Assembly: GCA_937926935.1 (NCBI GenBank)
Contig: CALBBI010000057.1
Coordinates: forward strand, 1 to 51,217
Direction: 5' to 3'
From: an uncultured Bacillota bacterium
GTDB taxonomy: Bacteria; Bacillota_I; Bacilli_A; RF39; UBA660
DNA: 51,217 nt
Part shown: positions 18,272-48,142 of the stretch, piece after piece
How positions within the stretch are numbered: the first letter of the stretch is position 1
Layout: each line of letters starts with the position of its first letter
Translations under genes and position numbers: made by a program
The notes under the pieces: generated by a model
Seen by the model: only the letters and a program-made list of their open reading frames with translations
Database searches by the model: none
Told to the model about the DNA's origin: nothing

Positions 18272-19651
18272 TTATTTATCAATAATAATCGTTATTTTGT
18301 GTTCTAAAGGTTCGTCAGTTTCATTGTAACTTATTCTAATTCCTTGATTTTGGAGTTTAGTTATAGTTTCTTTTATCGTGGTAATGGAATTATTTAGTGA
18401 ACTTGAAACTTGGTTAATTGGTTCAAGTGATTCCACCATACTCATGGGGTCAAATAATTCTTCTTGTTTAGGTGTTGATTCTTGGTATGCTGGAGTAGTA
18501 TTATTTGGTTCCGGAGTGAAGAAACGATTATTTGGGTTTAATTCAATTGGGGTTTCGAAAGTATTAAAATCAGGAGCTGGGGTTGCAATGGTTTCTTCTT
18601 GTTTTGGAGTTGGGTCAAAGATTTCAATATCTTTTTTAGGTTGTTGTTCTGGTGTAGTTAAAGTATCGAAAGAAGTTGGAGTATCAAAGTTGAAATTTAA
18701 CTCAGGAGCACTATTCATATTAAAAGTATTTTCAGCAGAGAAGGCATTGTTCCCATTAACATTAGCCGGAGTACTTTCTAAGGTATTAAAGAATTTATTG
18801 ACTGGACTTTGGTTGTCTTCAGTAGGCATGTTAGACATTATATCCATGCTATTTGGAACATTAATTGTTGTCATATTGCTAGGATTTTGAGGTAGGGAAC
18901 TACTATAGTCAGTTAGAACATCTTCTGGTACCATCATATTCGCCACATTTCTATTTTTATTTGGATTGATATCTACAGCTTTATCTTTGATTTCTTCAAC
19001 GTTTGGATTGATATCTACTAAAGGAATTTCTTTATTAGTAGTGTTTTTCTTTAGAACTTGTTTTAGTTCTTGGTCTAGTTGTCTTACAGTCATACGGTCA
19101 GTTATAATGCGGTTAAGCCATTCTTTTTGGGCAGTTTTACTATCTAGTGATAGAAGGGCACGGGCATGACGTTCGCTTATTCTTCCTTCTAAAAGAGCTT
19201 GTTGGACTTCATCATCAAGATTTAGAAGACGGAGTTTATTGGCAATAGCAGATTGTGAGATACCCATTTTTTTAGCTAGTTGTTCTTGAGTTAGATAGCC
19301 TTTATCAAGAAGATTTTTGTAGCTTCTAGCTTCTTCAATTGGGGTTAGATCTCTTCGTTGGATATTTTCAACTAATGCTACTTCGGCACTGGAGTTATCG
19401 TCAATATTAGAAATTACAGCAGGAACTGTAGTGAGGCCAGCCATTTGGGATGCTTTATATCTTCTTTCGCCAGCGATTATTTCATATTTACTGCCAAGTT
19501 TGCGTAATACTAAGGGTTGAATTATCCCATGTTCTTTTATAGACGCCGCTAGTTCTTTTAGACCTTGATCGTCGAAAGAAAGTCGTGGTTGAAACCTATT
19601 TGGGATTATATCGTCGATATTTACCTGTACTATTTGTGATTCCATTTGCAT
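18272..19651 (-). CDS. noc: ParB-family CTP-dependent DNA-binding protein, Noc-like, with a roughly 200-aa low-complexity insertion
   Basis: ParB N-domain (IPNRFQPR, GIIQPLVLR, IIAGERRYKA). HTH LTQEQLAKKMGISQSAIANKLRLLNL...ISERHARALL. Residues at the ParB/Noc specificity positions read Q-K-N-R. It lies immediately downstream of rsmG, as B. subtilis noc does. Residues about 205-415 are N/P/T/F-rich. The last 40 aa (ITTIKETITKLQNQGIRISYNETDEPLEHKITIIIDK) look like the C-terminal dimerisation domain. An in-frame TGA 9 nt upstream of the ATG fixes the N-terminus. Confidence 0.75.
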   Translation of the reverse strand: MQMESQIVQVNIDDIIPNRFQPRLSFDDQGLKELAASIKEHGIIQPLVLRKLGSKYEIIAGERRYKASQMAGLTTVPAVISNIDDNSSAEVALVENIQRRDLTPIEEARSYKNLLDKGYLTQEQLAKKMGISQSAIANKLRLLNLDDEVQQALLEGRISERHARALLSLDSKTAQKEWLNRIITDRMTVRQLDQELKQVLKKNTTNKEIPLVDINPNVEEIKDKAVDINPNKNRNVANMMVPEDVLTDYSSSLPQNPSNMTTINVPNSMDIMSNMPTEDNQSPVNKFFNTLESTPANVNGNNAFSAENTFNMNSAPELNFNFDTPTSFDTLTTPEQQPKKDIEIFDPTPKQEETIATPAPDFNTFETPIELNPNNRFFTPEPNNTTPAYQESTPKQEELFDPMSMVESLEPINQVSSSLNNSITTIKETITKLQNQGIRISYNETDEPLEHKITIIIDK

Positions 19652-25989: not shown

Positions 25990-26289
25990 TTATCAACAAT
26001 AAAATGAAAACAACCTGTGGATAACTTTTTAGTTGTGCACAACTTTTACTCCAAAAATGGGTGATTTTTAAAGTTATCCACAATATCCACAGGCATTTTT
26101 TTGGCGTACTTCAGCCAAAAAATGTACTAAATATTAGTTATCCACAGGGGCTGTGGATAACTTTTGGTAATTTGTCCACATTGTTGATAAGTAAATTGTG
26201 GATAATGTGGATAAGTCATTAAAGATAAGTATACACCGAGAAAAAAATGTGGATAAAATGTGGATAACATGTGAATTTCTTGTGAATAA
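25990..26289. promoter_or_regulatory. oriC part 1: DnaA-box cluster upstream of dnaA
   Basis: Perfect TTATCCACA/TGTGGATAA boxes at 26016, 26074, 26138, 26152, 26197, 26206, 26248 and 26259 (start coordinates). One-mismatch boxes at 25990, 26083, 26172, 26182 and 26281. Confidence 0.9.
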
Positions 26290-29130: not shown

Positions 29131-29616
29131 ATGAAAAATTATGAGATTAATGAAGAAACATTGGCAATTATAAGCCATTATCCAAATGCTAGAATATATG
29201 AAGGGACAAAATCTTATTTAATAAAAGATAATACTTATAATATTATTAAGAAAAGTTGTGAATATTTTGGCAGTACGTTTGAAGGCAGAAGAAGAGGTAC
29301 TAAGATATTAACTGGGTACGCTACTAAATCGCCAATTATTATTGAGGAGAGTAGAGATATTATATTTTTTCCAACATCTTCACCGAGAAGTAAAGAATGT
29401 TCATGGATTTCTTTAAATAATGTTAAGGATTACCGAAAAAGGGATAACAGTACAGAAATAATCTTTAAAAATAAGTCAAAAATTTTAATAAATATTTCAT
29501 ACTATGCTTTTACAAACTTAATTTTGCGAGCAACAAGATTAAATTATGTTTTAAATGAAAGAAAAATCGTCAAAAAAGCAAAAAAGCCAGCAAAAAAGAA
29601 AGATAATGTGGTATAA
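29131..29616 (+). CDS. ComK-family protein
   Basis: 161 aa. YEINEETLAIIS..., SCEYFGSTFEGRRRGT..., IIFFPTSSPRSKECSWISLNNV parallel B. subtilis ComK (RFFGSSYAGRKAGT, IFLFPTLSSTRPQCGWIS). Lys-rich tail. Confidence 0.7.
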   Translation: MKNYEINEETLAIISHYPNARIYEGTKSYLIKDNTYNIIKKSCEYFGSTFEGRRRGTKILTGYATKSPIIIEESRDIIFFPTSSPRSKECSWISLNNVKDYRKRDNSTEIIFKNKSKILINISYYAFTNLILRATRLNYVLNERKIVKKAKKPAKKKDNVV

Positions 29617-32715: not shown

Positions 32716-35181
32716 ATGGATAATAAACAAAATAAAAATGTTGTTGATATAATGAAGAGTTCCTTCTTAGAATATTCAATGGATGTTATTATTGCGCGTG
32801 CATTGCCAGATTTAAGAGATGGTTTAAAACCTGTACATCGTCGTATTTTATACACAATGTATGAAGATGGTTTAACTCCAGATAAAGCTTTTCGTAAAAG
32901 TGCTACTACTGTAGGTGCGGTTTTAGGTAAATATCATCCACATGGTGATACGTCTGTATATGACGCTATGGTAAGAATGGCTCAAGACTTTAGTTATCGT
33001 CATCCACTAGTTGATGGGCATGGTAACTTTGGTTCAATAGATGGTTTTGGTGCGGCAGCATATCGTTATACAGAAGCCAGATTATCAAAGATTTCTTTGG
33101 AGTTATTAAGAGATATTTATAAAGATACTGTTGATTTTGATCCAAACTTTGATGGAACTAAGAAAGAACCTAAAGTATTGCCTTCAAGATTTCCTAATAT
33201 ATTAGTAAATGGTACTATGGGTATTGCTGTAGGTATGGCAACTAATATTCCTCCTCATAATTTAGGGGAAGTAATTGATGGTTGTGTTGCTTATATTGAT
33301 AATCATGATATAACTGTTGAAGAATTAATGAAGTATATTAAAGGACCAGATTTTCCAACTGGAGCATCTATTTTAGGAAACAAGGGTATTAAACAAGCTT
33401 ATGAGACTGGTAGAGGTACTATTACTTTGAGAGCTCATGCTGAAATACAAGAAAATCATGGAAAACAACAGATAGTATTTACCGATATACCTTATCAAGT
33501 AACTAAAATGTCTTTAAGAACTCGTATCGCAGAGTTAGTAAGAGATAAAGTTTTAGAAGGGATTGCTGATTTACATGATGAATCTACATTAGATGGTATT
33601 CGTTTAGTAGTTCATTTGAAAAAAGAAGCAAATGCAAATGTTGTATTAAATAATTTATATAAATTTACACAATTACAAACAACTTATGGTATTATTTTCT
33701 TGATGTTAGATCAAGGTAAACCAAAAACTTTGAACTTATATGAAATTATTTCAAAATATATTGAATTTCAAAAGGAAGTTATCTACAGAAGAACTAAGTT
33801 TGAATTAGATAAGGCTGAAAAGAGAGTTCATATTTTAGAAGGATATAAGATTGCTTTAGATAATTTAGATGAAGTTATCAACATCATAAGAAATGCTGAA
33901 ACTGATGCATTAGCTAAAGAAAAGTTAATGAGTAGATTTGGTCTTGATGATATTCAAGCTGATGCTATTTTAGAATTAAAGTTACGTCGTTTGACTGGTT
34001 TAGAACGTTCTAAGATAGAAGATGAGTTGAATGAGTTATTGGCTTTAATTGATAAATTAAATGGTATTTTAGCTAGTGATGAAAAGATTTATAGCATTAT
34101 TAAAGAAGAATTATTAGAAATTAAAGCAAAATATGCTGATGAAAGACGTACTGATATTGATATGACTGCTATTGAATATATCGAAGATGAATCATTAATA
34201 CCAGAAGAAAACGTTATGTTAGCATTAACAAGCAAAGGATATATTAAGAGAACAACTGCCGATACATTTAAGTCGCAAAATCGTGGTGGTGTAGGTGTAA
34301 AGGGAATGACAACTAATGAAGAAGATAATGTTGAACATTTAATAAATTTATCCACACATGATTATGCATTATTCTTTACTAATAAGGGTAAGGTATATAG
34401 ATTAAAAGGCTACGAGATTCCACAGTTTAGTAGACAATCTAAGGGCTTACCAATAATTAATTTATTACAAATTGAAAAAGATGAATTAGTAAATAGTGTT
34501 ATTAAAGTTTCTCGAGATGATGAAAATAAGTACTTGATGTTTGCTACAAAAGGTGGTATAATTAAAAAGACGCCATTGTCAGAATTTGAAAGCATACGTC
34601 AAAATGGTAAAATATGCATTACGCTAAGAGAAAATGATGAGTTAATCGCTGTTCGAAAGACAACTGGTAATGATAATATCTTATTAGGTTCAAGTGATGG
34701 TCGTATGGTTAAGTTCAATGAATCTGAAATTAGAGAAATGGGACGTACTGCTTCAGGTGTTAAGGGTATTAACTTAAGTGAAGATGCTTACTGTATTGGG
34801 GCTGAGGTTACTAGTGACGATAATAACATTTTGATAGTAACAGAAAACGGTTACGGTAAGCAAACAAATGTTCAAGACTTCCGCGAAACAAGACGTGGTT
34901 CTAAGGGCGTAAATGCTTTAAATGTAACTGATAAAAACGGAAAGTTATGCACATTCAAAGTAGTAGACGATAGTACAGATGTAGTAATTATTACTGATTC
35001 TGGTATGGTTATGCGTATGCCATTAGCTCAAATATCAGTTTTAGGCAGGGTTACTCAGGGAGTTCGTTTAATTAACTTGAAAGATGGCCAAAAAGTATCC
35101 ACAATCAGTTTAATTAAGGCCGAACCAGATGATGTACTTAATGAAAGTTCTATAACTGAATCAGAAAATAACAATCAATAA
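32716..35181 (+). CDS. gyrA: DNA gyrase subunit A
   Basis: [16 protein letters not shown]-type region [14 protein letters not shown], active-site Tyr context [12 protein letters not shown]-terminal beta-pinwheel repeats. Confidence 0.95.
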
Positions 35182-35187
35182 AAAATA

Positions 35188-36050
35188 TTAACAATGTTTC
35201 ACGTGAAACATTGTTAACTTATTTAAATAGAAATACATATTTAGAAATAGATATGTATTTTTTTATATGTTTCACGTGAAACATAGTGGATAAATATTTA
35301 TTTTAATAAGCATTAATTATTTAATAAATAAAAAAATATTAAAATTATAATAAGTCCAGCAACAATTTTAAAAGTCAACTCAATGTTTCACGTGAAACAT
35401 TGAGGATAACTTTTGGATTTTGTAAAAAAATGTATTTATTATTTGCTATATTATTACAGATAAATACGTATTTTATGGGAATTTATAAGCATTTTAGCGA
35501 GAATACCAATGTTTCACGTGAAACATTGGGTGTTTATAGGTAAACAATAGCAATAATTAATCTACATATCTGTTTTATATAATTTTTAATTTATTTTTAT
35601 AAATAATTAATCAAAGTATATATGTTTCACGTGAAACATTGTTAATTAATTTAAAATTTCAATTAACTTTTTTTCATATTTTTAAAATGCACTAATGAAG
35701 ATTTATTTTTTATACGTGATGAATTATTATTTTTAATATTTCTATATCTTATATGAGTTTCAATACTAAATTTATTTCATTTTTTCTAATGTTTCACGTG
35801 AAACATAGTTGATAATTGTTTTAATTTTGCGGAATTAAAGTCAATGAGATAGGGTTTTTACTTTATTTTATAAATGTTAGGTAGTTATTTGACCATGTTC
35901 TAAGTTAAAGATACAAAAGCCCAATGTTTCACGTGAAACATTAAGGATAATACATTAAATAAAGGATAACCATAAATATAATTTTAACTTAAATGGACTG
36001 ATATATCGTTTTAAAATGATAATTACTATGTTTCACGTGAAACATAGTAA
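35188..36050. repeat. Array of eight identical perfect parS sites (ATGTTTCACGTGAAACAT; core TGTTTCACGTGAAACA) in non-coding DNA
   Basis: 18-mer copies at 35194..35211, 35267..35284, 35383..35400, 35509..35526, 35622..35639, 35789..35806, 35924..35941 and 36028..36045. Start-to-start spacing is 73, 116, 126, 113, 167, 135 and 104 bp. Some copies sit in longer palindromes: 30 bp at 35188..35217, 26 bp at 35379..35404, 24 bp at 35506..35529, 28 bp at 36023..36050. Spacers are AT-rich and unrelated to each other. Confidence 0.9.
35231..35264 (+). terminator. AT-rich hairpin plus T-run, candidate gyrA terminator
   Basis: AAATACATAT-N10-ATATGTATTT followed by TTTT. The 30-bp parS palindrome at 35188..35217 could also act as a terminator hairpin. 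Confidence 0.4.
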
Positions 36051-36214: not shown

Positions 36215-36244
36215 TTGATTTTATAAGAAATTATGTTATATAAT
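36215..36244 (+). promoter_or_regulatory. promoter candidate for the SRP RNA
   Basis: TTGATT (36215..36220), 18-nt spacer, TATAAT (36239..36244). The RNA 5' end is predicted about 6 nt downstream. Confidence 0.45.
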
Positions 36245-36248
36245 ATAT

Positions 36249-36327
36249 GCGTGCAACAATTATATAGGAACCTGGTCAGAGTAGGAATACAGCAGCCATA
36301 ACTATCCCTGTTTGTGTGCACTTTTTT
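36249..36327 (+). ncRNA. ffs: signal recognition particle RNA, short (4.5S-like) form
   Basis: CCUGGUCAGAGUAGGAAUACAGCAGCCAUAA matches the universally conserved domain IV (E. coli CCAGGUCAGGUCCGGAAGGAAGCAGCCAAGG). This includes the GGAA tetraloop closed by GUA/UAC. 5' GUGCA pairs with 3' UGCAC, followed by a T6 run. Ends are approximate. Confidence 0.75.
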
Positions 36328-36375
36328 ATTGGAATTTGTGCATACATATGTAGTAAGCTAGTTTGGAGTATAACT

Positions 36376-36792
36376 ATGGAAAAATATTTAGAAAAATTAT
36401 ATAATTTAGCTTTAGAGTCATCAAAAAACGGTGATATTCCTGTAGGATGTATCATAATTAAAAATGGAAATATTTTATCCACAGGCTATAATACCCGTAA
36501 ATGTGATAATTTAGTTATTGGTCATGCAGAAATTAACGCTATTTGTGAAGCAGAAAAAATTTTAGGTGATTTTAGACTTAATGGTTGTATACTTCTTACT
36601 ACGCTTAAGCCTTGTAAGCTTTGTTTTGAGGCAATAGAGGCCTCTAGAATAGATAAAGTGTATTATTTGCTTGACCAAAATTTAAATGGCTTGTATGAGC
36701 CTTTAAAATACGTTAAACTTGATATTGGAAATAATGAATATATAGATAAATATAAAAAATTATTTTTGAATTTTTTTAAGAATATGAGATAA
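36376..36792 (+). CDS. tadA: tRNA-specific adenosine deaminase
   Basis: Zinc motifs HAEINAI and PCKLC. ATG at 36376 has a GGAG SD. The upstream extension in the ORF track overlaps the SRP RNA and is unlikely to be translated. Confidence 0.85.
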   Translation: MEKYLEKLYNLALESSKNGDIPVGCIIIKNGNILSTGYNTRKCDNLVIGHAEINAICEAEKILGDFRLNGCILLTTLKPCKLCFEAIEASRIDKVYYLLDQNLNGLYEPLKYVKLDIGNNEYIDKYKKLFLNFFKNMR

Positions 36793-36844: not shown

Positions 36845-38494
36845 ATGGAATATAAAGTTCTTTATCGAAAATATAGACCACAGAATTTTGATTCTTTAGT
36901 AGGTCAAGAATATACAAAAACATTATTAAAAAATGCTATAAAAAATGAACATATTTCGCATGCTTATATTTTTACTGGCCCCCGTGGTACCGGTAAAACA
37001 AGTTCTGCTAAAATATTTGCTAAGGCTTTAAATTGCTTAAATCCAAAAGATGGAAATCCTTGTAATGAGTGTGAAATGTGTAAAAGTTTTGGAACAAATC
37101 CAGATATAATTGAGATAGATGCTGCTTCTAATAATGGAGTAGATGAAATAAGAGAAATAATTAATAATGTTCGATTAGCTCCAGCAAATTCAAAGTATAA
37201 AGTATATATCGTTGATGAATTTCATATGCTATCTACTAGTGCTTTTAATGCTTTATTATTAACATTGGAAGAACCACCATCTAATGTAGTATTTATATTA
37301 GCAACAACGGATATTCAAAGTGTTCCAATTACAGTTTTATCACGTTGTCAAAGATTTGATTTTAAACCAATTGCAGTTGATGATATAGTTAATCGTTTAA
37401 ATTATGTTTGTATCGAAGAAAAAATTGATATAACGAATGCTGCTTTAAAAGAAATAGCTTATATGAGTAATGGTGGTATGCGTGATGCATTAAGTATTTT
37501 GGATCAAATTTCTTCACGTAATACTAAAATAGATGTAGATGATGTTACAAGCAATTTTGGAAGTATTTCAAATAAAAAAGTAAAAGAGTTTATGGATGTA
37601 TTTACTTCTGGGGATGTTAAAGGCACTTTAGAACTATTAAAAGAATTTAAAAATAATGGTATCGATGTAAGAATATTAATTGAAAAGCTGATAGATAGAA
37701 TAAAATTAATCTTAATAGATATAAAATTAGATAATTATAATGGTATTCTTGATTTTGATATGCTTTATAGTATGGTTTTTGAATTAAATAGAGTACTTCA
37801 AGAAATTAAGAGTAATATCGATCCATATAATTTCTTAGAAATTGTAATTTTAAAATATTTCCCGGGAAATAAAATTTCAAGTAAAGATTTTAAAGATCCA
37901 GTCGAGGAAAAAAAGAGTGGTTCTACTTTGAAAATAGAGCAAAAAGTCGAAGAAAGACCAACTAAAGAAAATATTTCCCAGGAAATAAAAGAGAGTAAAG
38001 AACCTGAAATAAATAATGAGGCTCCAATAGTTAATGAAAAAAAGGCTCACTTTAATATAGACGCTAGAATTAATAATACTTTTGTCGGAGCTCAAAAAAA
38101 GTATTTGTTAGAGCTAAAAGAGAAATGGGACGATTTTGTTATTTATGAAAGTAATGCGAATAAGTTGTTACTTTCTTATATAGTAGATACTGAGCTTGTT
38201 GCAGCATCTAATAATTATGCTGTATTGGTTAATAAGATAAATAATACTAATGATTTAATTAATGAGAATATTGAATCAGTAGAAAAAGATTTTAAAATAT
38301 TCTTTGGTAGAGAATATAAATTAGTGTCTATTTCACCAAAAGTATGGGAAGAGGCACGTAATAAGTATATTACTAACTTAAAAAGTGGTTATAAATATAC
38401 TATGATGGATGATTCCATAATTATTGAAGAAAATACTAGTGAGTTGGAGAAGCTAGCTAATGAAATTTTTGGAAATAATTATGAAACAAAATAG
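36845..38494 (+). CDS. dnaX: DNA polymerase III subunit gamma/tau
   Basis: AAA+ GPRGTGKTS, zinc module CLNPKDGNPCNECEMC, SRCQRFDF. 549 aa. Confidence 0.95.
   Translation: MEYKVLYRKYRPQNFDSLVGQEYTKTLLKNAIKNEHISHAYIFTGPRGTGKTSSAKIFAKALNCLNPKDGNPCNECEMCKSFGTNPDIIEIDAASNNGVDEIREIINNVRLAPANSKYKVYIVDEFHMLSTSAFNALLLTLEEPPSNVVFILATTDIQSVPITVLSRCQRFDFKPIAVDDIVNRLNYVCIEEKIDITNAALKEIAYMSNGGMRDALSILDQISSRNTKIDVDDVTSNFGSISNKKVKEFMDVFTSGDVKGTLELLKEFKNNGIDVRILIEKLIDRIKLILIDIKLDNYNGILDFDMLYSMVFELNRVLQEIKSNIDPYNFLEIVILKYFPGNKISSKDFKDPVEEKKSGSTLKIEQKVEERPTKENISQEIKESKEPEINNEAPIVNEKKAHFNIDARINNTFVGAQKKYLLELKEKWDDFVIYESNANKLLLSYIVDTELVAASNNYAVLVNKINNTNDLINENIESVEKDFKIFFGREYKLVSISPKVWEEARNKYITNLKSGYKYTMMDDSIIIEENTSELEKLANEIFGNNYETK
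37856..37871. promoter_or_regulatory. perfect Noc-binding-site palindrome (TATTTCCCGGGAAATA) inside dnaX
   Basis: Exact 16-mer. Begins at codon position 1 and encodes Y-F-P-G-N-(K). Confidence 0.75.
37972..37987. promoter_or_regulatory. degenerate NBS-like site (TATTTCCCAGGAAATA, one central mismatch) inside dnaX
   Basis: 15 of 16 match to the NBS 16-mer. The reading frame differs from the perfect sites. Confidence 0.35.
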
Positions 38495-38511
38495 AAGAGG
38501 AGAATAAATTT

Positions 38512-38808
38512 ATGAATATGCAAAATTTAATGGCTCAAGCACAAAGAATGCAAAGAGATATTATGAAGAAAAAAGAGGAAGTAGGTAAACAATTATTTAC
38601 AGGAAAGTCGGAATTAGTTGAAGTTACAATGAATGGTAATAAAGAAGTAACTGAAGTAGTAATAAAAAATGAAGATTTAACTAAAGATGATATTGAAGTA
38701 CTTCAAGATATGATTATGATTGCCACAAATGATGCTATTAAGAATGTTGATCAAGCTATGGAAAAAGCTATGGGTCAATATGGAAGTGCTCTTAACGGAT
38801 TATTTTAA
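38512..38808 (+). CDS. ybaB: YbaB/EbfC family nucleoid-associated protein
   Basis: 98 aa, MNMQNLMAQAQRMQ.... Canonical dnaX-ybaB-recR order. Confidence 0.9.
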   Translation: MNMQNLMAQAQRMQRDIMKKKEEVGKQLFTGKSELVEVTMNGNKEVTEVVIKNEDLTKDDIEVLQDMIMIATNDAIKNVDQAMEKAMGQYGSALNGLF

Positions 38809-39407
38809 TGATATATCCTGCTAATTTATTGGAATTAATTGAATACTTTAAGAAATTGCCTGGTATTGGCGAAAAGAGTGCTGAACGTATGGCACTGGCA
38901 ATTTTAGATATGTCTTTAGAGGAAGTTGCTGATTTTTCTTTAGCCTTAAATACGGCCAAAAAGAAATTAAAGAGATGTAGTATTTGTGGTGGTTTAACAG
39001 ATGAAGATGTATGTTATGTTTGCCGAGATATTTCGAGAAATCATAACGTAATATGTGTTTTAGAGGACTTTAAAGGCGTTTTTGCTTTTGAAAAGGCTGG
39101 TAAGTATAATGGGGTGTATCATGTTTTAGATGGGCTTATTTCACCAATTGATGACAGAGGGCCTGAAGATATTAATTTATCTTCACTAATTGATAGAGTA
39201 AAAACTTTGGAAAATCCTGAAGTTATTATAGCTTTGAAGCCGTCTATTGAAGGAGAAACGACTACTTTATATATAAAGAAGATATTAGAAGATAAAGGGG
39301 TTAAAATATCTCGTTTGTCTTATGGTATTCCAATGGGTGTTGATATTGATTATTTGGATGAGATTACACTTCTTAATGCCTTAAATGATAGAAAAGATAT
39401 ATCATAA
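38808..39407 (+). CDS. recR: recombination protein RecR
   Basis: HhH N-terminus (LPGIGEKSAERMA), Cys4 finger CSICGGLTDEDVCYVC, Toprim domain. Confidence 0.95.
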   Translation: MIYPANLLELIEYFKKLPGIGEKSAERMALAILDMSLEEVADFSLALNTAKKKLKRCSICGGLTDEDVCYVCRDISRNHNVICVLEDFKGVFAFEKAGKYNGVYHVLDGLISPIDDRGPEDINLSSLIDRVKTLENPEVIIALKPSIEGETTTLYIKKILEDKGVKISRLSYGIPMGVDIDYLDEITLLNALNDRKDIS

Positions 39408-39450
39408 ATTATAGTAAGCCTAATATAATTATATTGGTTGGTGATTAACT

Positions 39451-39636
39451 ATAAAAAAAGTATATTTTGTTATAAGAAAATTAGTTTTTTCCTTTTTAAT
39501 GTTATATGGTTTAAATGTTATGTTAAAGTATGTTAACGTCATTATTCCTATTAATATTATAAATATAATAATTACTTATTTTTTAGGTGGTTTTGGTGTA
39601 TTAGCACTAGTTATTATAAAATTATTGATAATATGA
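39451..39636 (+). CDS. BofA-like small membrane protein (pro-sigma-K processing inhibitor family); proposed ATA start
   Basis: Own translation: (ATA)KKVYFVIRKLVFSFLMLYGLNVMLKYVNVIIPINIINIIITYFLGGFGVLALVIIKLLII. The C-terminal IPxN...LGxxGVLxLV resembles BofA. Position after recR matches B. subtilis recR-yaaL-bofA. ATA lies 5 nt after GGTGAT. The only canonical start (ATG 39499) has no SD and would cut TM1. Confidence 0.45.
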   Translation: MKKVYFVIRKLVFSFLMLYGLNVMLKYVNVIIPINIINIIITYFLGGFGVLALVIIKLLII

Positions 39637-39652
39637 TTGATTGGTGGTAGTT

Positions 39653-40486
39653 ATGTTTGAAGCAGATAAATTTAATGAATTGAAAAAGAAATATGAGGAT
39701 AATAAGCTTTCTCATGCTTTTTTAATTGAAACAAATAATTACGAATTATGTTTGAATGATATAAAACAACTATTAAAGATTGTTAATTGTCCTGACAAGT
39801 ATATGAGTGATTGTACTGAACAATGCAATTTATGTAAATTAATTGATTTATTGAATTTACCTAGTATTATAATTGTTGAGCCAGATGGTATGAGTATAAA
39901 AAAACAACAACTTAATGAGTTGCAAGAAAAGTTTAGTACTAAACCTGTGTATTCAAGGTATAATACATATATAATAAAAGATGCTGATATGATGAATGAT
40001 TCTGCTTCAAACTGTATGTTAAAATTTTTAGAAGAACCGGAAGATAATATTTTAGGGTTCTTTATAACTACTAATAAAGAGAGAGTAATTGATACGATAA
40101 AGAGTCGTTGTCAAATTATGAAAATCGACTATGCGACTAAGAGTGTAGTTGATGAGAAAATAATTGAATATGCAAATGAATATGTAAGAAGAATTTTGGA
40201 AAATTGTGATTTGATAGTAAATAAAGAATTTATTTTACCGTCTTTTGGTACGAGAAATGAAATTAATTCTTTGTTAACTGTTATTTTTGATATGTATATG
40301 AGTGCAATTAGTGAAAAATATTTCCCGGGAAATAAAAAAAATGACGTTTTATCAGGAATTTCTCTTGAACAATTAAAAAATCAAATTCCAATTATAGAAA
40401 AAACTATAACATTAAATCAAGCAAATGTAAGTTTAGAGCTATTATTAGATCAGTTTGTCATAGAAATGAGGAGAGCTAATGCGTAA
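39653..40486 (+). CDS. holB: DNA polymerase III delta' subunit
   Basis: Clamp-loader fold; LSHAFLIE, FLEEPEDN, SRCQIMKI. Followed by ricT, as in B. subtilis. Confidence 0.85.
   Translation: MFEADKFNELKKKYEDNKLSHAFLIETNNYELCLNDIKQLLKIVNCPDKYMSDCTEQCNLCKLIDLLNLPSIIIVEPDGMSIKKQQLNELQEKFSTKPVYSRYNTYIIKDADMMNDSASNCMLKFLEEPEDNILGFFITTNKERVIDTIKSRCQIMKIDYATKSVVDEKIIEYANEYVRRILENCDLIVNKEFILPSFGTRNEINSLLTVIFDMYMSAISEKYFPGNKKNDVLSGISLEQLKNQIPIIEKTITLNQANVSLELLLDQFVIEMRRANA
40319..40334. promoter_or_regulatory. perfect Noc-binding-site palindrome inside holB
   Basis: TATTTCCCGGGAAATA. Codon position 1; encodes YFPGN(K). Confidence 0.75.
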
Positions 40487-41279
40487 TATTTATGGTGTAG
40501 AATTTAAACCAAATGGAAAAATTTATTATTTTAATGCAGAAAAATTAGAATGTCCAATTAATGTAACGGTTATTGTTCGAACAGAACGAGGAGAACAATT
40601 TGGTAAAGTTGTAATGAAAATTAATGAGACTGATTTAAAAACTTCGATTGATGAGATTAGTCCAATAATTCGTATTGCAACCAAAAATGATTATAAGAAA
40701 CATTTAAGTTTATTGAAGGAACAAGAAGAAGCTATGAATTATGCTAAAGAAGTTGCTAATGAATTAAACTTGAATATGCGTTTTATGGATTCGAGCTTTA
40801 CCTTTGATAGAAAACAATTATTATTAAATTTCTTGGCTGATGAACGTATTGATTTTCGTGAACTTGCGAAAAGAATGGCTGGTAAATTTAAAACAAGAAT
40901 TGAATTAAGACAAATTGGGGCCCGTGATAAAGCTAAAAGTATTGATGGATATGGTGTATGTGGGAGAAGACTGTGTTGTGCTGGTTTTTTAAATCATATT
41001 GATTCTATAAGTATGAATATGGCTAAGAATCAAAATATTGCTTTGAATCCTTCTAAAATTAATGGTTGTTGTGGTAGATTATTATGTTGTTTAACTTATG
41101 AAGATGAACAATATAGTTGTTGTCGTGTCGGGATGCCTACTGTTGGTAAGAAGATTACTTTAGAGCAAGGTGAAGGCAAAGTTATATCTGTTGATATATT
41201 AAATAGAAAATATAAAGTTTTAATTGGAAATGAAGTTAAGGAGATTGAACTAGATAATAATGAAAGTAGTAAAGAATGA
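40479..41279 (+). CDS. ricT: PSP1-domain protein RicT (YaaT)
   Basis: PSP1 C-terminal domain with a Cys cluster (CGRRLCCAGF...NGCCGRLLCCLTYE). Syntenic with holB. Confidence 0.85.
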   Translation: MRNIYGVEFKPNGKIYYFNAEKLECPINVTVIVRTERGEQFGKVVMKINETDLKTSIDEISPIIRIATKNDYKKHLSLLKEQEEAMNYAKEVANELNLNMRFMDSSFTFDRKQLLLNFLADERIDFRELAKRMAGKFKTRIELRQIGARDKAKSIDGYGVCGRRLCCAGFLNHIDSISMNMAKNQNIALNPSKINGCCGRLLCCLTYEDEQYSCCRVGMPTVGKKITLEQGEGKVISVDILNRKYKVLIGNEVKEIELDNNESSKE

Positions 41280-41964
41280 TTTATTTGATTATGGATTAGA
41301 AATATATCAAGATGAGAAATTATTTAAATTTTCTTTAGACTCAATATTACTTGCCGAATTTGTAGAAAATAAGGCCGGATTAAATACAATAGTTGATTTT
41401 TGTTGTGGTAATGGGGCTGTGCCTTTGATACTTTCAACTAGAGTTAATAGTAAAATAATTGGTTTTGAATTACAAAAAAATGTCTTTCAATTAGCATATA
41501 ATTCGGTTATACTTAATAATTTAGAAAAACAAGTTAAAATTATTAATGCGAATCTTAATGAGAGCTTGGAATATATTTTACCTGAATCTGTTGATGCGGT
41601 TACTTGTAATCCGCCTTATTTTAAGTTAAATAAAGGGTCATATGTTAATACAGAAGAAAGTTTAGCTATAGCTCGTCATGAAATAAAAACTAATTTAGAA
41701 GAAATTGTAATGACGGCTAAATATATTTTAAAAAATAAAGCACCTTTGTATTTAGTGCATCGTCCAGAAAGATTAATGGAACTTATAGGGATTTTAACTA
41801 AATATAAATTTAGTGTTAAAAAGTTACAATTTGTTTATGCAGGATATCAAAAGAGTGCTATAATGGTTCTTATTAAAGCGACAAAAAATGGTTCTGATGG
41901 CTTGATTGTTAATCCGCCAGTAAATGTATTAGAGCATAGGAGTTATAAGAGAATTTTTGATTAG
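41260..41964 (+). CDS. SAM-dependent methyltransferase, YabB/TrmN6-like (tRNA m6A37 family)
   Basis: DFCCGNGAVPL SAM motif and CNPPYF motif. Position equivalent to B. subtilis yabB. Confidence 0.7.
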   Translation: MKVVKNDLFDYGLEIYQDEKLFKFSLDSILLAEFVENKAGLNTIVDFCCGNGAVPLILSTRVNSKIIGFELQKNVFQLAYNSVILNNLEKQVKIINANLNESLEYILPESVDAVTCNPPYFKLNKGSYVNTEESLAIARHEIKTNLEEIVMTAKYILKNKAPLYLVHRPERLMELIGILTKYKFSVKKLQFVYAGYQKSAIMVLIKATKNGSDGLIVNPPVNVLEHRSYKRIFD

Positions 41965-41977
41965 GATGTGATATAAA

Positions 41978-42529
41978 ATGAAGTTAATTGTTGGTATTGG
42001 AAATTATGGTAAAGAGTATGAATGTACAAGACATAATATTGGGTTTATGGTGTTAGATTATTTCCCGGGAAATAAAAAATTTGTCAAAAAGTTCAATGCT
42101 TTATGTTGTGAAGAAAATATTAATGGTGAAAAAGTTATTTTTATAAAGCCTTTAACGTACGTTAATCTTTCAGGAGATGCCGTTGCCAAATTTGCTAATT
42201 ATTATAAAATTGAAAATAAAGATATTTTGATTATTCAAGATGATTTAGACTTATCATTTCTAAAATATCGGTTAAAATATAAAAGTAGTGCGGGCGGACA
42301 TAATGGAATGAAGTCAATAATTGCTTCTTTAGGAACTGATATGGTTCCTCGGTTGAAAATTGGTATTGCGCATGATAGAAGTATGGATACTAAAGATTAT
42401 GTTTTAGGAAGAATTAGTAAAGAAAATTTAGAACAATTTAATGAAATGGCTCCAATATTTAAAGATATCATAGTAGATTTTGCTAATCATGATATAGAGT
42501 ATTGTATGCAAAAGTATAATAAGAAATAG
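41978..42529 (+). CDS. pth: peptidyl-tRNA hydrolase
   Basis: VGIGNYGKEYECTRHNIGF, KPLTYVNLSG, GGHNGMKSI. Confidence 0.95.
   Translation: MKLIVGIGNYGKEYECTRHNIGFMVLDYFPGNKKFVKKFNALCCEENINGEKVIFIKPLTYVNLSGDAVAKFANYYKIENKDILIIQDDLDLSFLKYRLKYKSSAGGHNGMKSIIASLGTDMVPRLKIGIAHDRSMDTKDYVLGRISKENLEQFNEMAPIFKDIIVDFANHDIEYCMQKYNKK
42059..42074. promoter_or_regulatory. perfect Noc-binding-site palindrome inside pth
   Basis: TATTTCCCGGGAAATA. Codon position 1; encodes YFPGN(K) in a segment that is variable between Pth proteins. Confidence 0.75.
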
Positions 42530-42538
42530 GTAATTGGT

Positions 42539-45500
42539 ATGAATTATTTAAATGAGTTATATAATTATGTTAATAATAGTGAAGTAATTGGTTTAACGAA
42601 AGAGTTAAACGTTTTTTACGTTAATCAGTATTTTGAAAGTCATGATGAGAACGTTTTAGTTTTAGCTAATAGTTTATATGAAGCTAATCAATATTATGAT
42701 TTACTAAGTACTTTAAATAAGGATGTTTTAATATTTCCAATGGATGATTTTATTTCTTCAGTAGCGGTGGCGATTTCGCCTGATTTGAAAATTAAACGTT
42801 TGGAAACTTTAAATCAATTAAAGGATAATAAAAAACATATTGTCGTTACGAATTTAATGGGACTTTTAAGATATCTTCCTGACTATAAATATGCTAATAA
42901 GACGCAATTTGAGTTAAAGAAGGGGATGCAAATAAGTAGAGATAAGTTTATTCAAATTTTAGATGAGTTTGGATATACTAAGGAATCTATGGTTGCAGCT
43001 ACTGGAGAATATGCTGTTCGTGGTTTTATAATTGATTTATTTATAATTGAGCAAGAGCATCCGGTTAGAATTGAATTTTTTGGTGACGAAATTGATTCAG
43101 TAAGAGTATTTGATGAGAATAATCAGTTATCTATTAAAGAGATAGATAAGATTACGGTATTACCTTATATTGAGATTGAAACGGCAAATAAGAGTTCAAT
43201 CTTGGATTATTTAGGAAAACCTTTTGTATTTATGATTGAGAAATCGCAAATTGATGCAGGGTATGCTAAACTTTGTGATGAGATAATGGAATATAATCAA
43301 TCACTAAATGAAAATAAAAAATATATGTTTGAAATGGAAGAGTTAAATATTTCTAACTGGATTTATTTGGATAGTTTAGAGGTTTTAAATGATAATAAAT
43401 TTCATTATCAAACAAAAGAAATAGAAAATTTTAATTCTAACTTTGATTTATTAGAAAATTATGTAAAAAATAAATTAAAAGGTAATAATACTGTTATATT
43501 TTATTTATCTAATAAAAATGAAATTGATGATATAATAGAAATATTTCCCACGGCAAGAATTACCACTGGAAATGAAATTATTACTAATCAAGTAAATATT
43601 ATTTCAAAGAAAATAGATAATGGTTTTGAAATATTTAATTACTGTGTAATAGCAGAATTTGATATAGAAAAAATAAATCATAAAGAAATTAAATATAAAA
43701 ATTCTTATCGAATTGGTAAAAGAATACATAATTTTGACCAATTAGAAGTTGGGGATTATGTTGTTCATGAAGCTCATGGAATAGGTATTTATAGTGGGGT
43801 TGTTACGTTAGATAATCATGGAATAAAGAAAGATTACTTATTAATAAAGTATGATGGTGATGACAAAGTTTATGTTCCTGTTGAAAAGATTAGTAATATT
43901 TTTAAGTATTCTTCCAAAGATGGTGATGTTCCTAAGATTAATAAGTTAAATAGTACTTCTTGGGAAAAGACGAAGCGAGCAATGCAGAAAAAAGTTCATG
44001 ATATTTCTATGGAACTTATCAAGCTTTATGCAGAGCGTGCTAAGATAAAAGGACCAGCTTTTAAAAGTGATCCTATAGAAGATTTATTTGATGCTGATTT
44101 TAAGTATGTTCCAACGGCTGACCAAGAAAAAGCTTTTAAAGATATTAATCTGGATTTAGAAAAAGATGTTCCTATGGATAGATTATTATGTGGAGATGTA
44201 GGTTTTGGAAAGACTGAAGTAGCATTTAGAGCAATGTTTAAAACAGTTGTTAATAATATGCAAGTATCTTATTTATGTCCTACAACAATACTTTCAAAGC
44301 AACAATATGAAAATGCTTTGGAAAGATTTAAAAATTTTCCAGTAGAAATAGCGTTACTAAATAGATTTACTACTCCTAAAGAAACGGAAAGAATTTTAGA
44401 AGGATTAAAAAATGGAACTATAGATATAGTATTTGGTACGCATCGTTTGCTTAGTAAGGATATTGAATATAAGAATTTAGGGTTATTAATAGTTGATGAA
44501 GAACAACGTTTTGGAGTAACACATAAAGAAAGAATTAAGCAATATAAGAATGATGTTAATGTTTTAACATTATCTGCAACACCAATTCCAAGAACTTTGA
44601 AAATGGCGATGTCAGGGTTAAGAGATTTATCCATTATAGATACGGCACCGGTTAATAGATATCCTGTTCAAACCTATGTCATGGCGGAATCTGATATGGT
44701 TGTAAAAGATGCTATATATAAAGAATTAGCGAGAAAAGGACAAATATTTATTTTATATAATCATGTTGATGGCTTAGAAAATAAACGAAGTGAATTACAA
44801 AAGTTAGTTCCGGAAGCTAGGATTGTAATGGCTCATGGTCGAATGAATAAGAGTGAAATTGAAGATGTAATGGATGATTTTATTAATTATAAGTATGATA
44901 TTTTATTATGTACGACGATTATTGAAACTGGAATAGATATTCCTAATGCTAATACGTTGATAATATTTGATGCGGATAGATTTGGTTTAAGTCAGTTGTA
45001 TCAAATTCGTGGTCGTGTTGGTCGTAGTAATAAAATTGCCTATGCTTATTTAATGTATGATAAAAATAAGATGTTAAATGATATTGCGATAAAGAGATTA
45101 CAGGCAATTAAAGAATTTACGGAGTTAGGTAGTGGTTATCGTATCGCTATGCGTGATTTGTCGCTACGTGGTGCTGGGGATATTTTGGGTAGTGATCAAG
45201 CTGGATTTGTTTCAGCGGTTGGCCTAGATTTGTATATGAAAATGGTTGATGAAGAGATTAAAAAAATTCATGGGGAAGAAATACCTAAAGAAGATACTAG
45301 TAATAAAGCTTTAATTAATGTTGATACTCATATTAGTGATGAGTATGTAAGTGATGAGAGTTTAAAAATTGAAATTCATCAAAAGATTAATGAAATTGAT
45401 AGTTATGAGAAATTAGAAAGTATTCAGCAAGAAATTGAGGATAGATTTGGTAAGATTGATGAAAAGATTATGGTTTATATGTATGAAGAATGGTTTGAGA

Positions 45501-45766: not shown

Positions 45767-45786
45767 GAGGCTTTGGTCTCTTTTTT
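45767..45786 (+). terminator. weak Rho-independent terminator candidate after mfd
   Basis: GAGGC-UUUG-GUCUC (includes one G.U pair) followed by T6. Confidence 0.35.
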
Positions 45787-45812
45787 GCTATTTTGGTTAT
45801 AAAAAAGTTACT

Positions 45813-45821
45813 TGTGGATAA
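45813..45821. promoter_or_regulatory. isolated perfect DnaA box 24 nt upstream of spoVT
   Basis: TGTGGATAA. Confidence 0.5.
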
Positions 45822-45844
45822 AATAAGGGTAGTGAGGTTATGAA

Positions 45845-46315
45845 ATGAATAATGGTTCGATTAAAAAAATAGATGAATTAGGACGTATTGTAATTCCTAA
45901 AGATATAAGAAAGAGATTATCAATAAAGAAAGATGATAGTTTAGAAATAAGTATTGATGATAATTATATAAAGTTAGTTAAAGCGGTAGCAATTAAGAAT
46001 TATGATGAGTATGTGATTGGGCTTTTGAAAATGCTTGTGGATAATATGCATGTAAAAATACTAGCGACAAACAGAGAAAAGGTTATTTTTAATAATACTG
46101 AGATTGACGATTTAGATGTTAAAAGATTGGTTGGATTATCATTATATGATTTAATGAAGGAAAAAGATAAGATTTGTAGTGCTTGTGATTTAAGACCAGT
46201 GATAATTGATTCGAATGTGGAAGGAATTATCTTAGTTAGTGATAGTAGTTGTAATGAAATAGTGGGTCAAATACTTAATATTTTGATTACAAATAAACTT
46301 GATATTTCATGTTAA
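45845..46315 (+). CDS. spoVT: stage V sporulation protein T-like (AbrB/SpoVT N-domain + C-terminal sensor-like domain)
   Basis: IKKIDELGRIVIPKDIRKRLSIKKDDSLEI is a swapped-hairpin AbrB domain. A further 100 aa follow at the C-terminus. Position after mfd, as in B. subtilis. Confidence 0.75.
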   Translation: MNNGSIKKIDELGRIVIPKDIRKRLSIKKDDSLEISIDDNYIKLVKAVAIKNYDEYVIGLLKMLVDNMHVKILATNREKVIFNNTEIDDLDVKRLVGLSLYDLMKEKDKICSACDLRPVIIDSNVEGIILVSDSSCNEIVGQILNILITNKLDISC

Positions 46316-46334
46316 TAATGGTAAACTATGGTTA

Positions 46335-46527: not shown

Positions 46528-46544
46528 CTATGGAGGAGATAGTT

Positions 46545-48074: not shown

Positions 48075-48075
48075 T

Positions 48076-48091
48076 TATTTCCCGGGAAATA
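48076..48091. promoter_or_regulatory. perfect Noc-binding-site palindrome, intergenic (metG-tatD)
   Basis: TATTTCCCGGGAAATA within a 22-bp perfect palindrome at 48073..48094, directly after the metG stop. Confidence 0.75.
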
Positions 48092-48126: not shown

Positions 48127-48142
48127 TATTTCCCGGGAAATA
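48127..48142. promoter_or_regulatory. perfect Noc-binding-site palindrome, intergenic (metG-tatD)
   Basis: TATTTCCCGGGAAATA, 35 bp after the previous site and 20 bp before the tatD start. Confidence 0.75.

What the first reader, a model, noticed from the sequence alone, without database searches (positions are those of the whole stretch)
35188..36050. Eight identical perfect parS palindromes form a dense centromere-like array in a 1.1-kb gene-free region after gyrA
- **What the sequence shows:** ATGTTTCACGTGAAACAT occurs eight times without a single mismatch, at irregular 73-167-bp intervals. The spacers are AT-rich, mutually unrelated and free of ORFs.
- **Identity of the motif:** The inner 16-mer TGTTTCACGTGAAACA is the perfectly symmetric form of the chromosomal parS consensus bound by ParB/Spo0J. 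I saw no other CACGTG-centred copy in the window.
- **Why it is unusual:** In B. subtilis and most Firmicutes the roughly ten parS sites are single, often imperfect, mostly intragenic and spread over hundreds of kb around oriC. Eight perfect sites in about 860 bp of dedicated non-coding DNA, 7.5-8.3 kb from dnaA, looks more like a plasmid centromere or a dedicated ParB/SMC loading platform. The invariant A...T flank also extends the conserved unit to 18 bp.
- **Added puzzle:** The only ParB-family gene visible here looks Noc-like rather than Spo0J-like (see the separate finding).
Basis: partly seen in the sequence, partly recalled or inferred. Interest (0 to 1): 0.85.

Follow-up and report, generated by a model that had tools for sequence, protein, structure and literature searches.

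The report
Compact chromosomal parS centromere array
Eight identical ParB-binding (parS) sites packed into 0.85 kb of non-coding DNA next to the replication origin form this gut bacterium's chromosomal centromere; this is a known kind of element in a very compact form, and in its relatives the same spacer also holds binding sites for a second ParB-family protein.

Summary
Eight exact copies of ATGTTTCACGTGAAACAT lie at 35194-36045, in the 1.06-kb gyrA-SRP RNA spacer, 7.5-8.3 kb from dnaA/oriC. No other copy was found in about 71 kb.

The array is real. Four independent metagenome assemblies of the same species carry 8, 7, 7 and 8 copies. Each 7-copy variant has cleanly lost one spacer plus one site.

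The sites are under selection. None of 144 parS columns varies among five strains, against 50 of 914 spacer columns. Only the sites align with the nearest related species.

It is a chromosomal centromere, meaning a ParB-loading and probably SMC-loading platform. It is not plasmid-like and not unique:
- Myxococcus has 22 parS in about 3 kb.
- A truncated genome scan found 17 loci with at least 5 perfect sites per kb.
- A large clade of low-GC gut Bacilli keeps parS sites in this same gyrA-tadA spacer.

The "Noc-like" puzzle is mostly resolved. The only ParB-family gene seen has Noc-type specificity residues (QKNR). Its own sites (NBS) occur six times, 1.8-12 kb downstream of the array.

In relatives, NBS and parS are interleaved in the spacer. 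I found no description of this.

The canonical ParB that must read parS was not found within reach.

The parts
35194..36045 (.). parS array: eight identical 18-bp palindromes in the gyrA-SRP RNA spacer
   Evidence: 0 of 144 site columns are polymorphic among 5 strains, against 50 of 914 spacer columns.
35194..35211 (.). parS site 1. The palindrome extends to 30 bp (35188-35217) and begins 7 nt after the gyrA stop codon.
35267..35284 (.). parS site 2, followed by AGTGGATAA
35383..35400 (.). parS site 3 (26-bp palindrome, followed by TGAGGATAA). The 126 bp spanning one of sites 3/4 plus the spacer between them are missing in strain L123; because the copies are identical, which site was lost cannot be told.
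35509..35526 (.). parS site 4 (24-bp palindrome)
35622..35639 (.). parS site 5
35789..35806 (.). parS site 6, followed by AGTTGATAA
35924..35941 (.). parS site 7, followed by TAAGGATAA. The ~105 bp spanning one of sites 7/8 plus the spacer between them are missing in strain L122; which of the identical copies was lost cannot be told.
36028..36045 (.). parS site 8 (28-bp palindrome)
32716..35181 (+). gyrA, the upstream flank of the array; a conserved synteny anchor
36242..36337 (+). SRP (4.5S/scRNA) RNA gene with a promoter-like site at 36215-36244. It ends the gene-free spacer.
36376..36792 (+). tadA, the downstream synteny anchor. The 138-aa start is the one called in the other assemblies.
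18272..19651 (-). The only ParB-family gene in about 71 kb: a 459-aa long-form Noc-like protein next to rsmG. It has a ParB_N CTPase domain and an HTH, specificity residues Q133/K139/N144/R161 (QKNR), no N-terminal membrane helix, a linker of about 200 aa that looks disordered from its sequence (not predicted here), and a conserved C-terminus of about 40 aa.
37857..37870 (.). NBS (Noc-binding site) ATTTCCCGGGAAAT, inside dnaX
   Evidence: conserved in 4 other strains
37973..37986 (.). NBS with one mismatch, inside dnaX
40320..40333 (.). NBS, perfect
42060..42073 (.). NBS, perfect
48077..48090 (.). NBS, perfect, intergenic
48128..48141 (.). NBS, perfect, intergenic
25990..26289 (.). oriC DnaA-box cluster upstream of dnaA
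27743..27834 (.). Second DnaA-box cluster, in the dnaA-dnaN spacer

Best explanation
The array is this organism's chromosomal centromere. Eight optimal parS sites sit in a dedicated non-coding spacer 7.5-8.3 kb to the right of oriC.

**Mechanism (inferred from established ParB biology).** Dimers of a canonical ParB, with Arg at position 173 and a small residue at 201 (Caulobacter numbering), nucleate on each 18-bp palindrome. They bind CTP, close into clamps and slide onto flanking DNA. Eight loading sites in 0.85 kb give a high loading flux from what is effectively a single locus. This would build one partition complex that marks the origin region and loads SMC-ScpAB, without the collisions that scattered sites cause.

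**ParA.** No ParA is encoded nearby, so the system may be ParA-less, as in pneumococcus.

**The second protein.** The neighbouring long-form Noc-like protein (QKNR) is predicted to load on the separate NBS sites that follow the array. In many relatives those sites are interleaved with parS in the same spacer. The origin-proximal domain is therefore probably occupied by two ParB-family clamps.

**Copy number.** The number of sites drifts by recombination between the identical sites.
For: **Shown**
- Eight exact copies of the universal parS, none elsewhere in about 71 kb.
- Origin-proximal position.
- Sites are invariant among 5 strains while spacers vary (0/144 vs 50/914, p=0.001).
- Between species only the sites align.
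- Copy number is 8/7/7/8, with clean one-unit deletions.
- parS sites lie in the same gyrA-tadA spacer in 20 of 120 genome loci, and (73 of 79 with at least one perfect parS, 0-10 per spacer) in the 79 loci of that scan and of the metagenome NBS-parS scan that show both flanks. GyrA identity to the window is 49-79%.
- The 18-bp form holds in 192 of 192 clade half-sites.
- The Noc-like protein has QKNR, and NBS is enriched.
- Site classes are strictly bimodal: 104+374 pure parS, 28+295 pure NBS, 1 hybrid. This argues for two separate homodimeric readers.

**From the literature**
- R173/G201 versus Q173/R201 decide parS versus NBS binding (PMC7383237).
- Clustered parS is the norm and favours collision-free SMC loading (PMC8357415).
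- parS clusters sit at the apex of Hi-C secondary diagonals in gut bacteria and in Corynebacterium (PMC10197239, PMC7083940).
Against: - No canonical ParB and no ParA gene were found between -10 and +61 kb of this species.
- None was found in about 1 Mb of origin-proximal DNA from relatives.
- The proposed reader of parS is therefore inferred, not seen.
- Binding, spreading and SMC loading are untested.
- Whether further parS sites exist elsewhere in the genome is unknown.
Confidence: 0.8

Rival explanations
1. This clade has no canonical ParB. The rsmG-linked long-form Noc-like protein, or an unknown factor, reads both parS and NBS, so the array belongs to a single-protein, dual-site centromere.
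For: - Only one ParB-family gene was seen in about 71 kb of this species and in every relative inspected.
- The usual soj-spo0J position after rsmG/noc is empty.
- NBS and parS are often about 25-37 bp apart in relatives.
Against: - The family is about 99% Q173-K179-x-R201. In deep mutational scanning, parS-binding variants always carried R173 (PMC7383237).
- Sites are strictly of two classes, with 1 hybrid half-site combination among about 800. One reader with additive contacts would tolerate hybrids.
- The exact universal parS is preserved across deep divergence.
- Displaced orphan parB genes are known in other Bacilli (my own knowledge of Staphylococcus and Streptococcus).
Confidence: 0.12
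2. The palindromes act mainly as structural or transcriptional elements, with ParB binding incidental. Candidate roles are hairpin terminators or insulators between gyrA and the SRP RNA gene, or cruciform/gyrase sites.
For: - Seven terminator-like hits against 0.2 expected.
- Site 1 is a 30-bp palindrome 7 nt after the gyrA stop.
- Several sites carry site-specific extensions of the palindrome.
Against: - The hits arise simply because the sites are palindromes in AT-rich DNA; the T-tracts are poor.
- One terminator would be enough.
- The conserved unit is exactly the parS consensus and is invariant, whereas stems of terminators co-vary freely.
- The same motif is used at other loci in other phyla, next to parAB, mnmG and rsmG.
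Confidence: 0.04
3. The array is a generic dispersed or selfish repeat (REP/MITE-like), or an assembly artefact.
For: - Identical short palindromic repeats.
- Copy-number polymorphism.
Against: - No copy outside the array in about 71 kb.
- Four independent assemblies agree.
- A long-read circular MAG of a relative carries a comparable array (L015).
- Conserved syntenic position across a deep clade.
Confidence: 0.02

Closest known systems
Myxococcus xanthus chromosomal parS cluster (22-24 sites in about 3 kb, roughly 4 kb upstream of parA; PMC3899335)
   Same: - A dense run of many parS sites in a short origin-proximal stretch (the Myxococcus passages read do not say whether its stretch is non-coding).
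- Similar density: about 1 site per 139 bp there, about 1 per 107-122 bp here.
   Different: - Sites here are all identical and match the perfect universal palindrome; the Myxococcus consensus is TGTTCCACGTGGAACG, with variants.
- No parAB operon is nearby here.
- The array sits between gyrA and tadA.
- A second site type (NBS) accompanies it.
Clustered oriC-proximal parS of Corynebacterium glutamicum (10 identical sites in 35 kb; PMC7083940) and Caulobacter crescentus (5 strongest in 5 kb; PMC5815017)
   Same: - Multiple sites, mostly intergenic, some identical, forming one ParB/SMC loading hub near the origin.
   Different: - The array here is about 6-40 times more compact.
- The cognate ParB and ParA are not encoded nearby.
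Bacillus subtilis Spo0J-parS and Noc-NBS systems
   Same: - The same two 16-bp palindromes (TGTTTCACGTGAAACA and TATTTCCCGGGAAATA).
- A Noc-type paralogue encoded next to rsmG.
   Different: - B. subtilis parS sites are scattered over about 0.75 Mb and mostly lie inside genes.
- Its NBS sites are spread chromosome-wide.
- Its Noc has an N-terminal membrane helix.
- soj-spo0J follow noc.
- Here parS is one compact array. NBS sites cluster beside it or, in relatives, within it. The Noc-like protein lacks the helix, has a long linker that looks disordered, and soj-spo0J are absent from that locus.
Plasmid centromere arrays (F sopC, P1/P7 parS, iterated parC)
   Same: - Many ParB-type binding sites packed into under 1 kb of non-coding DNA.
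   Different: - Plasmid arrays are regular tandem repeats next to their parAB genes on a mobile replicon.
- This array has irregular, unrelated spacers, uses the chromosomal parS, sits in conserved chromosomal synteny and has no adjacent par genes.

Membership tests
Chromosomal parS centromere (ParB/Spo0J binding sites) | 16-bp palindrome matching TGTTNCACGTGAAACA | tested here: met
   8 exact copies of the perfect palindrome
Chromosomal parS centromere (ParB/Spo0J binding sites) | Location in the origin domain | tested here: met
   7.5-8.3 kb from dnaA, which is flanked by DnaA-box clusters
Chromosomal parS centromere (ParB/Spo0J binding sites) | Sites conserved under selection while the flanks diverge | tested here: met
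   0/144 vs 50/914 variable columns among strains. Only the sites align with L077. parS sites occupy the same spacer across the clade.
Chromosomal parS centromere (ParB/Spo0J binding sites) | A cognate ParB with parS-type recognition residues (R173, small residue at 201) encoded in the genome | tested here: inconclusive
   None in about 71 kb of this species or about 1 Mb of related origin regions.
Chromosomal parS centromere (ParB/Spo0J binding sites) | ParB binding or spreading and SMC loading at the sites | not testable with these tools
   Needs ChIP-seq, BLI or Hi-C
Plasmid-type partition centromere (sopC/parC-like) | Regular tandem iterons adjacent to a parAB operon on a mobile replicon | tested here: not met
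   Irregular 73-167-bp spacing with unrelated spacers. No ParA Walker motif in the window. Conserved chromosomal synteny.
Noc-NBS nucleoid occlusion system (for the neighbouring ParB-family gene and its sites) | NBS palindrome ATTTCCCGGGAAAT present and enriched | tested here: met
   5 perfect plus 1 one-mismatch site against 0.19 expected
Noc-NBS nucleoid occlusion system (for the neighbouring ParB-family gene and its sites) | Noc-type specificity residues Q173, K179, K184, R201 | tested here: met
   QKNR, i.e. 3 of 4, with the permissive K179 present. About 99% of 266 family members are Q-K-x-R.
Noc-NBS nucleoid occlusion system (for the neighbouring ParB-family gene and its sites) | N-terminal amphipathic membrane-targeting helix | tested here: not met
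   The longest possible ORF starts about 20 aa before the FQPR motif. The same is true in 147 family representatives. In the HMMER alignment to the B. subtilis Noc chain 7ol9, window residue 5 pairs with chain residue 28, i.e. Noc has about 20 more N-terminal residues; that these include the membrane-targeting helix, at the extreme N-terminus, is from my own knowledge of Jalal et al. 2021 (PMC8429893), a paper listed but not opened.
Noc-NBS nucleoid occlusion system (for the neighbouring ParB-family gene and its sites) | Passes the curated Noc model (TIGR04285) | tested here: not met
   284.8 bits, below the cut-off of 315
Noc-NBS nucleoid occlusion system (for the neighbouring ParB-family gene and its sites) | NBS sites spread chromosome-wide except near the terminus | not testable with these tools
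   Only about 71 kb is visible. Within it, all NBS sites lie 1.8-12 kb to the right of the parS array.
Dispersed repeat (REP/MITE-like) | Many copies scattered through the genome | tested here: not met
   No copy outside the array in about 71 kb

The most novel reading that the evidence does not exclude
In a large, mostly uncultured clade of low-GC gut Bacilli, the chromosomal centromere may be a compact composite element fixed in the gyrA-tadA spacer.

- It is built from two site types, parS and NBS, often about 25-37 bp apart.
- These would co-load two different ParB-family CTP clamps.
- The Noc paralogue has lost its membrane helix and gained a long linker that looks disordered. It would then act at the origin/centromere rather than in nucleoid occlusion.
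- In the extreme version, it would have replaced canonical ParB altogether.
- The window's pure 8-site parS array followed by a 10-kb NBS field would be one variant of this architecture.
Probability: 0.35. Interest if true: 0.75.

Novelty: new variant of a known kind. Interest (0 to 1): 0.5.

Why it matters
**The array itself.** It is an unusually clean natural example of a point-like, high-flux ParB loading site. It suits tests of how site number and spacing set ParB clamp loading and SMC entry. The natural 7- and 8-copy alleles help here.

**The wider result.** A whole clade of abundant gut Bacilli keeps its centromere in one fixed spacer and pairs parS with Noc-type NBS sites. This does not fit the B. 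subtilis picture of scattered parS and chromosome-wide NBS. It makes a testable prediction that a Noc paralogue has been re-used for origin organisation.

**A practical use.** The gyrA-tadA parS/NBS cluster is a simple marker of the origin/centromere in metagenome-assembled genomes of these lineages.

Tried and rejected
**1. Finding the canonical ParB (unsuccessful)**
- No ParB_N/HTH_ParB gene other than the Noc-like one, and no ParA, in the window.
- None in the 10 kb further left or right in other assemblies.
- None around five homologues of the Noc-like gene.
- None in 120 genome loci and 120 metagenome loci of the clade.
- The representative search with the N-terminal domain returned only the long-form family in its top 150.
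- The exact-sequence look-up of the window protein found nothing.

**2. DnaA-box coupling (rejected)**
- Four of the eight sites are followed by xxxGGATAA or xxTGATAA.
- DnaA boxes with at most 1 mismatch are at background density here.
- The flank is not a feature of the related loci (GATAA at that offset in only 5 of 192 clade flanks). It probably reflects ancestral unit duplication.

**3. Dual-specificity variant data**
- QKNR is not listed in the held supplements of PMC7383237.

**4. Literature**
- Livny et al. 2007 is not held.
- Searches found no paper on sub-kb parS arrays in Firmicutes or on parS/NBS interleaving.

**5. Odd loci**
- L245 (48% G+C), which looked like an exception, appears to be a chimeric contig: a SusD-family gene lies upstream of the sites.
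- L190 (38% G+C) has unrelated genes (LysM, caspase-type peptidase, ADP-ribosylglycohydrolase) beyond a gyrA fragment and was not explained.

**6. Plasmid or prophage origin** was rejected on synteny.

**7. Structure prediction** of the Noc-like C-terminus was not run, as it is peripheral to the array.

Full report
**Observation**

The 18-mer ATGTTTCACGTGAAACAT occurs exactly eight times, starting at 35194, 35267, 35383, 35509, 35622, 35789, 35924 and 36028. No occurrence is expected by chance. Allowing three mismatches to the inner 16-mer finds nothing else in the 51-kb window. Spacings are 73, 116, 126, 113, 167, 135 and 104 bp.

The spacer is 23% G+C and contains only trivial ORFs of 47 aa or less. 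Apart from short flanks next to each site, the spacers share no similarity. The non-coding gap runs from the gyrA stop (35181) to an SRP RNA gene at 36242-36337. That gene has a good promoter-like site at 36215-36244. tadA starts at 36376.

**Genomic setting**

The window is an origin region. Reading across it:
- On the minus strand, in window order: a ParB-family gene, rsmG, mnmG, mnmE, jag, yidC and rnpA (rnpA lies nearest oriC).
- On the plus strand, in order: dnaA (26334-27728), dnaN, a ComK-like gene, recF, gyrB, gyrA, the array, SRP RNA, tadA, dnaX, ybaB and recR.

Perfect DnaA boxes cluster on both sides of dnaA. The array therefore lies 7.5-8.3 kb to the right of oriC.

**The array is real and under selection**

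RecR of this organism is present in hundreds of metagenome assemblies, from human-gut cohorts to judge by sample names such as Hadza. Four independent assemblies of the same species (L121-L124) reproduce the array with 8, 7, 7 and 8 sites. Each 7-site allele has lost exactly one spacer plus one site: 126 bp in L123 and about 105 bp in L122. This is what recombination between identical sites would produce.

Among the five strains, none of the 144 parS columns varies, against 50 of 914 spacer columns (Fisher p=0.001). Against the nearest other species found (L077, GyrA 79% identical, 6 sites), only the parS blocks align.

**How unusual it is**

I scanned 185,579 species genomes for two perfect 16-mers 85-115 bp apart. 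17 of those loci have at least 5 perfect sites within 1 kb, and some have up to 9-10.

In most lineages the clusters lie next to mnmG, rsmG or parB. Some dense arrays, in a Paceibacterota, a Treponema and a gammaproteobacterial MAG, have no par genes among the flanking ORFs I scanned.

Published precedents and context:
- Myxococcus xanthus has 22 parS in about 3.05 kb (PMC3899335).
- C. glutamicum has ten identical sites in 35 kb (PMC7083940).
- Caulobacter has its five strongest sites in 5 kb (PMC5815017).
- Most bacteria have clustered parS, and scattering is restricted to a few lineages including Bacilli (PMC8357415).

A dense origin-proximal parS cluster is therefore a known kind of element. 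The B. subtilis comparison made it look stranger than it is.

**A clade-wide feature**

Twenty of the 120 genome loci carry their parS cluster in the same gyrA-tadA spacer. They are low-GC MAGs labelled uncultured Bacilli, Tenericutes, Mycoplasma, Candidatus Onthocola or Clostridium sp., with GyrA 62-79% identical to the window.

Across the 79 genome and metagenome loci where both flanks are visible:
- The spacer is 180-2533 bp long (median 527).
- It holds 0-10 parS sites (mode 2).
- The window's eight sites are near the top of this range.

In this clade the base outside the 16-mer is A...T in 192 of 192 half-sites, against 58% in other lineages.

**The ParB-family gene**

ORF 18272-19651 (459 aa) has ParB_N and HTH_ParB domains in its first 200 residues. 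Its similarity to known proteins:
- It matches Noc structures slightly better than Spo0J (197 vs 182 bits).
- It scores 284.8 bits on the Noc model, below the 315-bit cut-off.

At the four positions that decide parS versus NBS recognition, ParB has RTAG and Noc has QKKR (PMC7383237). This protein has Q, K, N and R. The same Q-K-x-R pattern holds in about 99% of 266 family members.

The family is large and diverse. All 150 best 50%-identity representatives belong to it, with lengths of 227-982 aa. Members share three features:
- They always start about 20 residues before the FQPR motif, so they lack Noc's N-terminal membrane helix.
- They carry a variable, low-complexity linker.
- They end in a conserved C-terminus of about 40 aa.

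Synteny is rsmG, the long-form Noc-like gene, then a divergently oriented PBP. This holds in four related species or more distant family members; a fifth (P0101) shows the same rsmG linkage, but its contig ends before the PBP position. None has soj-spo0J there.

**NBS sites**

The Noc-binding site ATTTCCCGGGAAAT occurs five times perfectly and once with one mismatch, against 0.19 expected. The sites are at 37857, 37973, 40320, 42060, 48077 and 48128, all 1.8-12 kb to the right of the array. All are conserved among strains. None lies in the other 60 kb visible. The Noc-like protein therefore has its own cognate sites.

**Interleaving in relatives**

Among the 120 genome loci, NBS occurs only in this clade, and it is often inside the same spacer as parS. 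For example, L015, from a long-read circular MAG, has six tandem units of about 126 bp, each holding one NBS and one parS.

Almost all are in the gyrA-[sites]-tadA-dnaX-ybaB-recR context of organisms with 19-31% G+C. Of the two loci with higher G+C, L245 appears chimeric and L190 carries unrelated genes.

Within the range the scan could detect, centre-to-centre distances peak at 25-29 bp and at 35-37 bp. My literature searches found no description of this arrangement.

**One reader or two**

Sites of the form xTTTCxCGxGAAAx are strictly bimodal:

| Sequence set | Pure parS | Pure NBS | parS/NBS hybrid |
|---|---|---|---|
| Window plus 20 genome loci | 104 | 28 | 0 |
| 120 metagenome loci | 374 | 295 | 1 |

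Only a handful of other variants occur. A single protein making independent base contacts should tolerate hybrid and intermediate sites. In the deep mutational scan, parS-binding variants always had R173. The data therefore favour two homodimeric readers: the QKNR protein on NBS and a canonical ParB on parS.

**What I could not show**

I found no canonical ParB or ParA:
- none in the window;
- none in the flanking 10 kb on either side;
- none in about 1 Mb of related origin-proximal sequence.

The rest of the genome could not be reached with the tools and caps available. Displaced orphan parB genes without parA occur in other Bacilli (my own knowledge of Staphylococcus; PMC7022226 for pneumococcus). 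Absence near oriC is therefore not evidence of absence. I put about 0.12 on the alternative that the clade truly lacks a canonical ParB.

**Mechanism**

Most likely, ParB dimers nucleate on each 18-bp palindrome, bind CTP, close and slide away. Eight optimal sites in 0.85 kb then act as one high-flux loading point for ParB, and through ParB for SMC-ScpAB. A single point avoids the SMC collisions seen with distant sites (PMC8357415).

The dedicated spacer keeps the sites out of coding sequence. Site 1 might also help terminate gyrA transcription, but that is speculative. The Noc-like clamp would load on the adjacent NBS field. What its linker and C-terminal domain do is unknown.

- **Shown:** site identity, position, conservation and polymorphism; the recognition residues of the paralogue; NBS enrichment.
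- **Inferred:** which proteins bind, spreading, SMC loading, and any coupling between the two clamps.

**Verdict**

The array is a compact member of the known class of chromosomal parS clusters. Its density has precedent, and its location is conserved in a large clade. The newer element is the clade's pairing of parS with NBS sites and an atypical Noc paralogue. For the window itself, this pairing shows up as an NBS field just downstream of the array.

Noticed in passing
window 37857-48141 (six sites): Six Noc-binding sites (five perfect ATTTCCCGGGAAAT) all lie 1.8-12 kb to the right of the parS array. None occurs in the other ~60 kb visible for this species. Two sit about 116 bp apart inside dnaX, and a similar pair lies at a similar position in dnaX of L114.
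   Followed up: partly
L015:2264-2903; also L052, L061, L062, L105, L114, and L134-L253: In relatives, NBS and parS are interleaved in the gyrA-tadA spacer. L015 has six tandem ~126-bp units, each with one NBS and one parS. Within the range the scan could detect, centre-to-centre distances peak at 25-29 and 35-37 bp. Clade NBS sites have the extended consensus AAATT-ATTTCCCGGGAAAT-AATTT.
   Followed up: partly
window 18272-19651 (-): The ParB-family protein belongs to a large, diverse long-form family (227-982 aa). Its N-terminal 200 aa are highly conserved, with Q-K-(N/S/T)-R recognition residues. It has no N-terminal membrane helix, a variable low-complexity linker and a conserved C-terminal module of about 40 aa whose function is unknown.
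   Followed up: partly
L122 and L123 versus window 35383-35508 and 35924-36027: Natural copy-number alleles of the array (7 vs 8 sites) differ by clean loss of one spacer plus one site. This is consistent with recombination between identical parS copies.
   Followed up: yes
window 35285-35293, 35401-35409, 35807-35815, 35942-35950: Four of the eight parS sites are followed directly by a DnaA-box-like xxxGGATAA or xxTGATAA at the same offset. The flank is nearly absent from related loci, and DnaA boxes are not enriched in the array. It is probably a relic of unit duplication.
   Followed up: yes
window 29131-29616 (+): A ComK-family gene sits between dnaN and recF in place of the usual small yaaA/S4-like gene. 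The arrangement is conserved in relatives. The region also has several sporulation genes (spoIID, spoIIR, yabP, yabG, spoVG), so the organism is probably a spore former.
   Followed up: no
L254:8729-9919 and L255:8845-9918: More distant family members carry an extra 357-396-aa gene with no Pfam match between rsmG and the Noc-like gene. It is absent from the window.
   Followed up: no
L245 and L190: Two metagenome contigs join the clade's parS/NBS-tadA or gyrA region to unrelated genes: a Bacteroidota-type SusD gene in L245, and caspase-like and ADP-ribosylglycohydrolase genes in L190. L245 looks like an assembly chimera; L190 may be a chimera or an insertion.
   Followed up: partly
L046:1473-1843; L109:7232-7957; L047:5384-6464: Very dense perfect parS arrays also occur in unrelated lineages. 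Examples are 7 sites in 0.37 kb in a Paceibacterota chromosome, 9 in 0.73 kb in a gammaproteobacterial MAG, and 10 sites in a Bacilli MAG, most of them on a 55-bp grid. No par genes were found among the few flanking ORFs scanned in L046 and L109.
   Followed up: partly
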